Source: a virus
Taxonomy: Duplodnaviria; Heunggongvirae; Uroviricota; Caudoviricetes
Length of the DNA stretch: 9,540 bases
Reading direction: 5' to 3' (one strand)
IMG/VR virus record: IMGVR_UViG_2671180651_000017
Made by a program: the position numbers and the translations under genes
Part shown: positions 7,272-7,366 of the stretch, in pieces
How the letters are laid out: every line of letters begins with the position of its first letter
Position numbering within the stretch: the first letter of the stretch is position 1
The notes under the pieces: model-generated
Database searches by the model: none
Told to the model about the DNA's origin: nothing
The model's input: the letters and a program-made list of their open reading frames with translations, nothing else

Positions 7272-7366
7272 AAAAAAACGTCCTCGAACGTTGCCGAACG
7301 AGGACGATTCTAGGCGGTAGTAAAACGCCGTTTGTGTGATATCACACTACCAGCACGTGATATCAC
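7272..7366 (-). promoter_or_regulatory. alpA leader: 8-bp stem hairpin plus U7 abutting the alpA start codon, and two GTGATATCAC dyad sites
   Basis: Hairpin CGTCCTCG-(12 nt)-CGAGGACG at 7279-7306, followed on the minus strand by TTTTTTT (7278-7272) and then ATG. The only SD (GAGGA) is in the stem. Palindromes GTGTGATATCACAC at 7334-7347 and GTGATATCAC at 7357-7366; TAGAAT -10-like hexamer on the minus strand around 7308-7313. Confidence 0.5.

What the first reader, a model, noticed from the sequence alone, without database searches (positions are those of the whole stretch)
7272..7366. alpA start codon directly preceded by a terminator-like hairpin plus U7 that sequesters its only SD, with two GTGATATCAC dyads upstream
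On the minus strand an 8-bp GC-rich stem (7279-7306) is followed by seven U and then the alpA AUG with no spacer. The only Shine-Dalgarno-like GAGGA lies in the 3' arm of the stem. Upstream are two dyad-symmetric sites, GTGTGATATCACAC and GTGATATCAC, the second overlapping the cargo ORF stop. The layout suggests alpA expression is gated by termination or translational occlusion after read-through from int, and/or by a factor binding the dyads. This would be the induction checkpoint of the island.
Basis: seen in the sequence. Interest (0 to 1): 0.55.

Follow-up and report, generated by a model that had tools for sequence, protein, structure and literature searches.

The report
Read-through lock hairpin before satellite alpA
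Just upstream of the master-switch gene alpA of an E. coli phage satellite lies a conserved RNA hairpin that buries the gene's ribosome-binding site and, in E. coli, also looks like a transcription terminator; it most likely stops transcripts coming from the neighbouring integrase operon from switching the island on, and it overlaps probable binding sites for two regulators.

Summary
In detail: an 8-bp GC stem (7306-7279, minus strand), U7, the alpA AUG with no spacer, the only SD (GAGGA) in the 3' arm, and two GTGATATCAC dyads upstream.

The hairpin is real. Across 11 divergent lineages 95.5% of cells pair, 6 of 10 pairs show compensatory changes, and the G·U pairs exist only on the alpA-sense strand.

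- It occurs only in islands with a gene inserted between int and alpA. Cargo-less relatives with near-identical AlpA lack it.
- The U-run is confined to E. coli/Salmonella-type lineages, whereas the SD in the 3' arm is universal.
- The 12-nt loop holds two CGAAC repeats 10 bp apart. The same repeat forms arrays in both att arms, so it is probably an AlpA (excisionase-type) box.
- The dyads occur only with this cargo family. They lie 20-22 bp apart, and dyad 2 is centred 27-28 nt before a -10-like hexamer flush with the stem.

Best reading (about 45%): a lock against int-cargo read-through, acting by termination plus SD occlusion as in IS10 fold-back inhibition. alpA's own promoter is predicted to start inside the stem.

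This is a new variant of known kinds, and the transcription start site is untested.

The parts
7279..7306 (-). RNA hairpin: 5' arm CGTCCTCG (7306-7299), 12-nt loop, 3' arm CGAGGACG (7286-7279)
   Evidence: -19 kcal/mol, z -5.5. Covariation across 11 lineages.
7281..7285 (-). Shine-Dalgarno-like GAGGA of alpA, inside the 3' arm
   Evidence: A purine-rich SD sits in the 3' arm of all 16 lineages (GAGGA, GAGGG, AGGAG, AAGGG, AGGTGG).
7272..7278 (-). T7/U7 tract: terminator tail and SD-AUG spacer
   Evidence: T5-T8 in E. coli/Salmonella-type lineages; degenerate or absent in Klebsiella-type (ATTTATCT, GCTTATCA), Providencia (AATCATTT) and L095/L145/L146.
7047..7271 (-). alpA (74 aa, PF05930 Phage_AlpA)
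   Evidence: (E 3.4e-16).
7285..7299 (+). CGAAC-N5-CGAAC direct repeat (one helical turn) occupying the loop and the innermost stem pairs; candidate AlpA/RDF box
   Evidence: motif 9x in the window vs 2.1 expected, 0/200 shuffles. Conserved in every hairpin lineage, and in the hairpin-less class D at L008 2346-2360.
7307..7312 (-). -10-like hexamer TAGAAT flush with the 5' arm; predicted +1 at about 7300-7299
   Evidence: (top -10 score in the 130 nt upstream). Inferred only; no transcription-start data.
7334..7347 (.). Dyad 2, GTGTGATATCACAC, centre 7340.5 (about -40.5 from the predicted +1)
   Evidence: Conserved in 12 cargo-family lineages at 27-28 nt from the hexamer.
7357..7366 (.). Dyad 1, GTGATATCAC, overlapping the cargo stop codon, centre 7361.5 (about -61.5)
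7363..8136 (-). Cargo gene (257 aa, no Pfam or PADLOC family). Conserved N-terminal beta-alpha-alpha-beta module and C-terminal helices, with a variable centre.
8133..9356 (-). Tyrosine integrase; its stop codon overlaps the cargo start (ATGA), so int and cargo form one operon
113..147 (+). Array of four (C/T)(G/C)AAC repeats at 10-bp spacing in one att arm
9410..9444 (+). Array of four CG(A/T)AC repeats at 10-bp spacing in the int-proximal att arm
9503..9517 (+). Further CGAAC-N5-CGAAC pair next to the terminal repeat

Best explanation
The 91-nt cargo-alpA spacer is a compact composite control region of a PICI-type phage satellite that lies between cspD/yljB and clpS in E. coli.

**Shown**
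- Its core is an RNA hairpin selected on the alpA-sense strand. The 3' arm carries the alpA SD, and in E. coli/Salmonella islands a U-run follows directly, giving an intrinsic-terminator shape that abuts the AUG.
- The hairpin occurs only where a gene has been inserted between int and alpA.

**Inferred mechanism**
1. The hairpin is a lock against read-through from the int-cargo operon. That operon is probably expressed independently of AlpA: in EcCICFT073 AlpA does not control the int promoter.
2. Read-through transcripts are terminated at the U-run. Any that pass have the SD and the SD-AUG spacer buried at about -12 to -20 kcal/mol. AlpA, whose over-production alone induces excision and runaway replication in EcCICFT073, is therefore not made by accident.
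3. alpA's own promoter is predicted to use the -10-like hexamer TAGAAT (7312-7307), flush with the stem, and to start at about 7300-7299. That is the last base or two of the 5' arm.
4. Its mRNA would therefore lack the 5' arm and have an open initiation region. This is the logic of IS10/IS50 fold-back protection against external promoters.

**Two DNA-level sites overlie this (inferred)**
- The loop encodes two CGAAC repeats one helical turn apart. The same repeat forms arrays in both att arms. This is the signature of excisionase-type winged-helix proteins, so it is probably an AlpA autoregulatory box at about +1 to +15.
- The two GTGATATCAC dyads sit at about -40.5 and -61.5. They occur only with this cargo family and are probably the operator of a dimeric regulator. 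The best candidate is the cargo protein's N-terminal Xis/MerR-like module.
For: **RNA-level selection**
- Alignment A2 (11 lineages): 95.5% of cells paired, against 34-47% when partners are slid by 1-3 columns.
- 6 of 10 pairs change on both sides; 0/500 shuffles reach the covariation score.
- U·G and G·U pairs at four positions would be A·C mismatches on the other strand.

**Link to cargo insertion**
- All 13 annotated E. coli loci with a gene between int and alpA have the hairpin. The gene comes from two unrelated families, the window type and DUF6387.
- All four annotated cargo-less loci lack any hairpin or terminator in their 420-nt spacer, as do about 30 viral contigs with the same N-terminus. 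Class D folds no better than shuffles.
- About 119 of 494 E. coli genomes with this alpA carry the hairpin region.

**SD occlusion is the universal feature**
- In 16 lineages the SD is in the 3' arm, and the hexamer-to-ATG distance is 32-35 nt.
- Free energy is -12 to -20 kcal/mol with the 5' arm and -3 to -6 without it.
- The window mRNA predicted to start at 7300 is less structured than 196 of 200 shuffles.

**Promoter geometry**
- The flush hexamer fits nAnAAT in most lineages and T at position 6 is invariant.
- It is the top -10 score in 130 nt upstream in 6 of 12 lineages.
- Dyad 2 is centred 27-28 nt upstream of it in 12 lineages, although the intervening sequence is unalignable.
- Dyad lineages lack any -35 match, whereas dyad-less lineages B, C and L080 have TTGC-type -35 hexamers at 16-17 nt.

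**AlpA box**
- YGAAC-N5-YGAAC occurs 9 times in the window against 2.1 expected. The copies cluster in both att arms and in the loop.
- Relatives show the same periodic GTTC arrays upstream of int. Klebsiella-type islands use TGAAC both in the arms and in the loop.
- Class D keeps the pair without a hairpin.
- Binding sites of recombination directionality factors are direct repeats one helical turn apart, and such factors also regulate promoters, including their own (PMC7498355 abstract; PMC11963761).

**Background biology**
- AlpA activates its own promoter, is induced by helper phage through an unknown inducer, and its over-expression induces the island (PMC6092414).

**Dyads and cargo**
- Cargo homologues of 32-66% identity from E. 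coli, Salmonella, Klebsiella and Providencia all keep the two dyads. The first always overlaps the stop codon.
- The cargo N-terminus is predicted as beta-alpha-alpha-beta with pLDDT about 90.
Against: - There are no transcription-start data. The -10 assignment is inferred.
- Three lineages have TTAAAT, which lacks the usually essential A at -11. Lineages C and F have only AAAAAT in AT-rich sequence.
- The 3' half of the hexamer often pairs with the start of the tail (AAAU/AUUU; AUAU/AUAU in L146; UUAAAU/AUUUAA in L149). Its conservation could therefore reflect a lower A/U stem rather than a -10 element.
- An activator box at +1 to +15 is unusual. That position suits repression, whereas AlpA was reported to activate its own promoter in EcCICFT073.
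- A T-rich SD-AUG spacer also exists in hairpin-less class D (AGGTTTTTGTATG), so the U-run may be partly a translation feature.
- The 12-nt loop is larger than in typical terminators, and termination efficiency is unknown.
- Fold matches for the cargo N-terminus are not significant (E >= 1.3). Sequence and profile comparisons to AlpA and to the PDB are negative.
Confidence: 0.45

Rival explanations
1. Obligatory leader attenuator. alpA has no promoter of its own downstream of the dyads. Every alpA mRNA comes from upstream (Pint, a promoter inside the cargo gene, or one overlapping the dyads) and contains the full hairpin. Expression then needs a trans-acting factor that suppresses termination or opens the SD. 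Candidates are a helper-phage antiterminator, an RNA-binding protein or helicase, or AlpA itself.
For: - The hairpin plus U7 abuts the AUG and occludes the SD.
- The helper-phage inducer of alpA is still unknown (PMC6092414; PMC11773190).
- The hexamer can be explained as the 5' strand of a lower A/U stem.
- The loop is more conserved than the stem, as expected if a factor recognises it.
Against: - Class D islands, whose AlpA is identical from residue ~12 on, have no hairpin, so induction cannot depend on it in general.
- No alternative (antiterminator) fold, leader peptide or Rfam family was found.
- In classes A and B the loop repeats are inverted (CGTTC instead of CGAAC). That keeps a dsDNA site but changes the RNA sequence, which argues against RNA-level recognition of the loop.
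- No nut/boxA-boxB-like element was seen.
- The fixed 27-28-nt register between dyad 2 and the hexamer has no explanation in this model.
Confidence: 0.25
2. Plain 3'-end element of the int-cargo operon (a terminator or mRNA-stabilising hairpin) that came in with the inserted gene. Its overlap with the alpA SD would be incidental, with no regulatory meaning for alpA.
For: - It is present only when a cargo gene is present.
- It has the classic stem plus U7 in the window.
Against: - The same hairpin follows two unrelated cargo families, while the sequence 3' of it (the alpA N-terminus) is shared, so it travels with alpA rather than with the cargo.
- The U-run is lost in several lineages while stem, SD-in-arm and the 32-35-nt distance to the ATG are strictly kept.
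- The loop carries the att-arm repeat.
Confidence: 0.15
3. Purely DNA-level element: the inverted repeat is a palindromic protein-binding site or cruciform flanking the CGAAC boxes, with no RNA function.
For: The loop repeats are best read as a DNA site.
Against: - Stem sequences differ completely between lineages (GTCCTCG, GCTCCTG, ACCCTTG, CCACCTG) yet keep pairing.
- Four stem positions use U·G/G·U pairs, which are mismatches in duplex or cruciform DNA of the other strand.
Confidence: 0.05

Closest known systems
IS10/Tn10 (and IS50) 'fold-back inhibition': protection of the transposase gene from external promoters (Davis, Simons & Kleckner 1985, Cell 43:379; cited in PMC13181058)
   Same: Transcripts entering from outside contain an inverted repeat that buries the ribosome-binding site. 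Transcripts from the resident promoter start inside the repeat and are translatable. The purpose is to keep a dangerous mobile-element gene silent despite upstream transcription.
   Different: Here the protected gene is a satellite master regulator and the 'outside' transcription is the element's own int-cargo operon. In E. coli the hairpin is also terminator-shaped, and its loop carries a protein-binding repeat. The internal start site is predicted, not mapped.
Rho-independent terminator used as an insulator between co-oriented operons
   Same: GC-rich 8-bp stem followed directly by U7, downstream of the int-cargo operon.
   Different: The 12-nt loop is unusually large. The terminator tail doubles as the SD-AUG spacer. 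The U-run is not conserved outside E. coli/Salmonella-type lineages, although the hairpin is.
Dual-purpose recombination directionality factors that also regulate promoters: 186 Apl, Mesorhizobium RdfS, P4 Vis (PMC7498355; PMC11963761; Calì et al. 2004 as cited there, its content recalled from my own knowledge)
   Same: A small winged-helix protein; binding sites are direct repeats one helical turn apart, found at att and at a regulatory promoter. The same CGAAC repeat occurs in both att arms and at the alpA leader.
   Different: Binding by AlpA is untested here. RdfS represses its own promoter, as P4 Vis is reported to do by my recollection, and Apl acts between the early promoters of phage 186 rather than at its own, whereas PICI AlpA was reported to activate its own. 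Embedding the box in the loop of an SD-sequestering hairpin has not been described in the papers I could search.
SaPI Stl-type master repressors (Gram-positive PICIs; PMC6092414)
   Same: If the cargo protein binds the dyads, it would be an island-encoded HTH regulator with a variable putative sensor region, placed next to int and controlling the switch gene.
   Different: There is no sequence or significant fold similarity. The cargo gene is co-oriented with int and alpA. It is present in only a subset of islands, and its function is untested.
Pseudomonas aeruginosa AlpA, a Q-like processive antiterminator (PMC7969949, PMC9371919)
   Same: Same name, and intrinsic terminators lie just upstream of its target genes.
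   Different: Not homologous. Pa AlpA is at least 142 residues with eight helices and a 21Q-like fold. The window AlpA is a 74-aa PF05930 protein whose only PDB sequence match is 8c3t, a 73-aa 'AlpA family phage regulatory protein'.

Membership tests
Rho-independent (intrinsic) terminator | GC-rich stem of about 5-14 bp | tested here: met
   8 bp with 6 G-C pairs, -19 kcal/mol including A-U extensions.
Rho-independent (intrinsic) terminator | Short loop (about 3-8 nt) | tested here: not met
   The loop is 12 nt, partly closed by two inner pairs and a GCAA tip. For this reason the scan missed it.
Rho-independent (intrinsic) terminator | U-rich tract immediately 3' of the stem, conserved among relatives | tested here: inconclusive
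   U7 in the window and T5-T8 in E. coli/Salmonella-type lineages. The tails in other lineages are ATTTATCT, GCTTATCA, AATCATTT, ATTAGATT, ATATCCAT and AGTA.
Rho-independent (intrinsic) terminator | Transcripts actually end there | not testable with these tools
   Needs 3'-end mapping or in vitro transcription.
Fold-back / RBS sequestration against read-through (IS10-type) | RBS pairs with a segment further upstream; pairing is maintained in evolution | tested here: met
   The SD is in the 3' arm in 16 lineages; 6 of 10 pairs are compensatory.
Fold-back / RBS sequestration against read-through (IS10-type) | The resident promoter starts between the two arms, so the native mRNA lacks the 5' arm | tested here: inconclusive
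   A -10-like hexamer lies flush with the 5' arm in fixed register with dyad 2. It also pairs with the tail in many lineages. There are no transcription-start data.
Fold-back / RBS sequestration against read-through (IS10-type) | Upstream co-oriented transcription exists | tested here: met
   int and cargo are co-oriented, the int stop overlaps the cargo start, and the hairpin is present only when cargo is present. Transcription itself was not measured.
Transcription attenuator / riboswitch | Mutually exclusive antiterminator structure, leader peptide or ligand-binding aptamer | tested here: not met
   No Rfam family. Folds of 141-181 nt show no competing helix for the arms. An upstream in-frame ATG occurs in only some lineages.
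Q-like/AlpA(Pa)-type processive antitermination | The regulator is homologous to Pa AlpA or to Q | tested here: not met
   different size and fold, and no sequence match.
RDF (Xis/Apl/Vis/RdfS-type) autoregulatory operator | Direct repeats spaced one helical turn apart | tested here: met
   CGAAC-N5-CGAAC at 7285-7299; conserved in all lineages, including the hairpin-less class D.
RDF (Xis/Apl/Vis/RdfS-type) autoregulatory operator | The same repeat is present at the att site | tested here: met
   Arrays at 113-147, 9410-9444 and 9503-9517. Periodic GTTC arrays lie upstream of int in 12 relatives.
RDF (Xis/Apl/Vis/RdfS-type) autoregulatory operator | The RDF (AlpA) binds these repeats | not testable with these tools
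   Needs EMSA or footprinting. Binding by the integrase arm domain is an untested alternative.
Activator- or repressor-controlled sigma-70 promoter with a dyad operator near -41.5 | Dyad centred about 40 bp upstream of the start, at a fixed distance from the -10, with a weak -35 | tested here: inconclusive
   The geometry holds in 12 lineages and no -35 match is seen. The start site and the binding protein are unknown.

The most novel reading that the evidence does not exclude
The 'cargo' gene is not cargo. It would be a family-specific master regulator of the island, functionally analogous to SaPI Stl, which has not been identified for Gram-negative PICIs.

- Its conserved N-terminal Xis/MerR-like HTH would bind the two GTGATATCAC dyads at about -40 and -61 of the alpA promoter.
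- Its highly variable central beta-rich domain would sense a helper-phage protein.
- The hairpin would let this regulator and int be expressed from one operon without leaking into alpA.
Probability: 0.2. Interest if true: 0.8.

Novelty: new variant of a known kind. Interest (0 to 1): 0.55.

Why it matters
How helper phages switch on alpA, the master activator of Gram-negative PICIs, has been open since 2018 (PMC6092414; still stated as unknown in PMC11773190).

This region gives concrete, mutable cis-elements for one widespread E. coli/Enterobacterales lineage:
- a read-through lock, whose stem can be probed with disrupting and compensatory mutations;
- a predicted start site;
- a candidate AlpA box shared with the att arms;
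- a pair of operators tied to one adjacent protein family.

It also suggests a design rule for satellites. Inserting a constitutively expressed accessory gene between int and alpA requires insulating the switch gene. That rule is relevant when PICIs are engineered as delivery vehicles.

Tried and rejected
1. **Homology of this AlpA to the P. aeruginosa AlpA antiterminator.** Rejected: the size and fold differ, and the only PDB sequence hit is 8c3t.
2. **Rfam.** A search of the whole window at E <= 1 gave only a chance snoRNA hit elsewhere.
3. **Recognisable operator types, checked by eye.** The lambda nut boxB resemblance of the GCCCT...AGGGC stems does not hold: the stem length and loop are wrong and no boxA is present. 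Lambda CII-type TTGC-N6-TTGC at the -35 of dyad-less lineages is absent. As a CRP site the dyad fails, being TGTGA-N2-TCACA rather than N6.
4. **An upstream in-frame ATG at the hexamer/stem junction, extending AlpA by 12 aa.** It is present in some lineages but absent in the window, L088, L091 and L149, and out of frame in class B. Not a conserved start.
5. **Dyads as a copy of a helper-phage operator.** Paired GTGATATCAC sites occur in 64 viral stretches. The large group (about 40 contigs of 35-60 kb) carries multiple GTGATATCA repeats between RHH-like genes in an unrelated genomic context. The satellite-sized hits are simply further relatives of this island. There is no evidence of a lambdoid helper operator.
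6. **The genome-contig scan with AlpA.** It returned only four distant loci in unrelated alpha-/deltaproteobacterial and acidobacterial genomes and was not informative.
7. **Identity of the cargo protein.**
   - PADLOC and Pfam gave nothing.
   - A full-length fold search gave no match.
   - An N-terminal-domain fold search gave only non-significant Xis/MerR-type top hits.
   - hhalign against AlpA and a PDB profile search were negative.
8. **The small GGCG...CGCC helix between dyad 2 and the hexamer.** It is not conserved in L012, L013 or L088.
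Full report
**What the window is**

The 9540-nt window is a complete PICI-type phage satellite. On the minus strand it encodes, in order:
- a tyrosine integrase (9356-8133);
- a 257-aa gene with no known family (8136-7363), whose start overlaps the int stop;
- alpA (7271-7047, PF05930);
- further downstream, a DUF4222 gene, a D5/P4-type primase, a small terminase and a capsid gene.

It is 100% identical to a region between cspD/yljB and clpS in E. 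coli 2014C-3061, and it occurs in O157:H7, O145:H28 and O103:H2 strains. The window starts and ends with the same 11 nt, ATAACTATCAT. This is presumably the att core.

**Checking the observation**

- Stem: CGTCCTCG (7306-7299) pairs with CGAGGACG (7286-7279) around a 12-nt loop.
- T7 (7278-7272) follows directly, then the ATG at 7271.
- GAGGA (7285-7281), in the 3' arm, is the only SD-like element.
- GTGATATCAC (7366-7357) overlaps the cargo stop codon.
- GTGTGATATCACAC (7347-7334) lies with its centre 21 bp from the centre of the first dyad.

These features exceed chance. The hairpin folds at -19 kcal/mol against -7.8 +/- 2.0 for shuffles, with 0 of 200 shuffles as stable. The decamer occurs twice against 0.18 expected. 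The start codon is secure: it is the first start after an in-frame stop, and M1-N2 is invariant in homologues.

**The hairpin is a selected RNA structure**

I collected relatives from four sources:
- E. coli genomes (then);
- viral contigs;
- contigs encoding homologues of the cargo protein, from Salmonella, Klebsiella, Providencia and metagenomes.

Sixteen distinct lineages carry a hairpin in the same place. Their stems differ widely: GTCCTCG/CGAGGAC, GCCCTCG/CGAGGGC, GCTCCTG/CAGGAGC, ACCCTTG/CAAGGGT, CCACCTG/CAGGTGG and GCTCTCG/CGAGAGC.

On an 11-sequence alignment:
- 95.5% of cells pair, against 34-47% when the 3' partners are slid by 1-3 columns;
- 6 of 10 pairs change on both sides;
- no shuffle of 500 reaches the observed covariation.

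Several pairs are U·G or G·U. These exist only on the alpA-sense strand, so selection acts on that RNA and not on a DNA palindrome.

**Which features are universal and which are not**

In all sixteen lineages the 3' arm contains a purine-rich SD (GAGGA, GAGGG, AGGAG, AAGGG or AGGTGG). The distance from the hexamer that precedes the stem to the ATG is 32-35 nt.

The U-run is not universal.
- It is T5-T8 in the E. coli/Salmonella-type lineages.
- It reads ATTTATCT or GCTTATCA in Klebsiella-type islands.
- It reads AATCATTT in Providencia.
- It reads ATTAGATT, ATATCCAT or AGTA in others.

SD occlusion is therefore the conserved property. Terminator shape is added in some lineages, including the window.

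**The hairpin goes with a gene inserted between int and alpA**

About 494 E. coli genomes carry this alpA, and only about 119 match the hairpin region. The common form, which I call class D, has no gene between int and alpA. Its features are:
- a 420-nt AT-rich spacer;
- a different AlpA N-terminus (MREINEDRV...), but the same sequence from residue ~12 onward;
- no terminator-like site on that strand;
- no structure beyond shuffles (sequences).

Every annotated locus with an inserted gene has the hairpin. Two unrelated gene families are involved: the window type and DUF6387. In all of them the sequence 3' of the hairpin is shared.

This pattern argues against the hairpin being the island family's induction checkpoint. 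It argues for a device that becomes necessary when alpA is placed directly downstream of an expressed operon. In EcCICFT073 the int promoter is independent of AlpA, and over-producing AlpA alone triggers excision and runaway replication (PMC6092414). Leakage into alpA should therefore be costly.

**A predicted promoter inside the element**

A hexamer fitting nAnAAT lies flush with the 5' arm. Across lineages it reads TAGAAT, TACAAT, CAGAAT, CAAAAT, AATAAT, CAATAT, TAAGAT, AAAAAT, TTAAAT or TAGGCT, and T at position 6 is invariant.
- It is the best -10 score in the 130 nt upstream in six of twelve lineages.
- In the twelve lineages that have the dyads, the centre of dyad 2 is always 27-28 nt upstream of the hexamer, although the sequence between is not alignable.
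- With the hexamer at -12 to -7, the start falls on the last one or two bases of the 5' arm (7300-7299). The dyads then sit at about -40.5 and -61.5, and there is no -35 match.
- Three of the four dyad-less lineages instead have TTGC-type -35 hexamers at 16-17 nt.

An mRNA starting at 7300 is less structured than 196 of 200 shuffles (-4.7 kcal/mol). Including the 5' arm gives -19 kcal/mol. The same contrast holds in all lineages.

This is the logic of IS10 fold-back inhibition (Davis, Simons & Kleckner 1985, cited in PMC13181058). Outside transcripts bury the RBS and the resident transcript does not.

The caveats are real.
- TTAAAT in three lineages lacks A at -11.
- In many lineages the 3' half of the hexamer pairs with the beginning of the tail, with apparent compensation in L146 and L149. 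A lower A/U stem could therefore explain much of the hexamer's conservation.
- No transcription-start data were available.

**The loop is a DNA-level site shared with the att arms**

The loop is more conserved than the stem. It always contains YGAAC-N5-YGAAC. In classes A and B, including the window, the repeat is inverted to CGTTC-N5-CGTTC. That preserves a duplex site but not the RNA sequence.

The motif occurs nine times in the window against 2.1 expected, with 0 of 200 shuffles reaching nine. The copies cluster as follows:
- an array of four at 113-147;
- an array of four at 9410-9444;
- a pair at 9503-9517;
- the pair in the loop at 7285-7299.

The first three lie in the two att arms, next to doubled ACTACACC motifs.

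Relatives show the same 10-bp-periodic GTTC arrays upstream of int. Klebsiella-type islands use TGAAC both in the arms and in the loop. Class D keeps the pair CGAACCTTAGCGAAC, unstructured, about 140 nt upstream of the ATG at L008 2346-2360.

Direct repeats one helical turn apart are the hallmark of excisionase-type winged-helix proteins. Such proteins often also regulate promoters, including their own, as with 186 Apl and RdfS (PMC7498355; PMC11963761). P4 Vis is cited there. That Vis binds its own promoter is my recollection of Calì et al. 2004.

I therefore read the loop as a probable AlpA box. Binding by the integrase arm domain is the alternative. AlpA operators are not described in the papers I could search.

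**The dyads belong to the cargo family**

Homologues of the window's cargo protein share 32-66% identity. They come from E. coli, Salmonella, Klebsiella and Providencia, and always lie between int and alpA.
- All keep two GTGA(T/A)ATCAC dyads 20-22 bp apart.
- The first dyad always overlaps the stop codon.
- Lineages with other inserted genes have none.

The protein has a conserved N-terminal module of about 40 residues, predicted as beta-alpha-alpha-beta with pLDDT about 90. It also has a conserved C-terminal helical region, and a highly variable centre. The best fold matches of the N-terminal module are mycobacteriophage Xis and MerR-family DNA-binding domains, with TM 0.63 but E >= 1.3, which is not significant. 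Sequence and profile tests were negative.

The co-occurrence makes the cargo protein the simplest candidate for the dyad-binding factor. This is inference.

**Verdict**

The comparative data favour a read-through lock plus a regulated promoter that starts inside the hairpin (about 0.45). An obligatory attenuator relieved at induction is less likely (about 0.25). A plain operon terminator (about 0.15) and a DNA-only element (about 0.05) fit worse.

Each component is a known kind: a terminator or insulator, fold-back RBS sequestration, an RDF box, and a dyad operator. Their nesting in about 95 nt, and the link to gene insertion between int and alpA, were not found in the literature searched.

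Noticed in passing
window 76-148 and 9373-9445 (also 9503-9517; 1-11 and 9530-9540): The two island ends share a 73-nt direct repeat (74% identity). Each copy holds a doubled ACTACACC motif (87-106 and 9384-9403) followed by four CGAAC-type repeats at 10-bp spacing. The window begins and ends with ATAACTATCAT. These look like the att core and arm-type sites for Int and the excisionase.
   Followed up: partly
window 6733-6912 (+) and 7001-7020 (+): RefSeq annotates a 59-aa YlcI/YnfO-family gene on the plus strand, convergent with alpA. It looks ribbon-helix-helix-like by eye. It is followed by a terminator-like GGCGACCGCCACAGGTCGCC + TTTGTTTTAT just beyond the alpA stop. The 235-aa minus-strand ORF 7037-6330 that overlaps it is probably spurious.
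   Followed up: partly
window 7363-8136 (-) and homologues P0001-P0019: The cargo family is mosaic. The N-terminal ~40 aa and the C-terminal ~70 aa are conserved (nearly identical in several members), while the central ~130 aa are highly divergent. This is the pattern expected of a swappable sensor or specificity domain. There are no PADLOC or Pfam hits.
   Followed up: partly
L080 6842-6877 (-), a 97-kb viral contig: TTGCAG-17 nt-TAGAAT-C-GCCCTC...GAGGGC-G-TTTTT-ATG precedes a 61-aa ORF between a ribonucleotide-reductase-like gene and a glutaredoxin-like gene. This is the same '-10 flush with a hairpin that ends at the ATG' layout in an unrelated large phage, here with a recognisable -35 but without the GAAC repeats.
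   Followed up: partly
L096 4495-4595 and about 40 similar 35-60-kb viral contigs: There are clusters of five to seven GTGATATCA(C) repeats in an intergenic region flanked by small ribbon-helix-helix-like genes. The same palindrome as the island's dyads is used in an unrelated genomic context.
   Followed up: partly
window 3494-3670 (+ coordinates): Three copies of GGGGTAGAGGGGTTTTA-like 17-mers lie 73-87 nt apart, just downstream of the primase gene. They are possibly origin iterons: PICI origins are reported downstream of pri (PMC10111431).
   Followed up: no
window 180-870: Several families of long direct repeats (88 nt at 223-310 and 760-847; 72 nt at 441-512 and 647-718; CCCGATATGG(T/G)(G/T)ATCCCCA units) lie in the non-coding end of the island beyond the capsid gene. 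Their function is unknown; packaging or attachment-related roles are possible.
   Followed up: no
L008 2100-2145 (class D int-alpA spacer): Three AATATC repeats at 10-bp spacing (GAATATCGGGGAATATCTGCAAATATC) lie just downstream of int in cargo-less islands. This is another periodic direct repeat that may bind a winged-helix protein.
   Followed up: no
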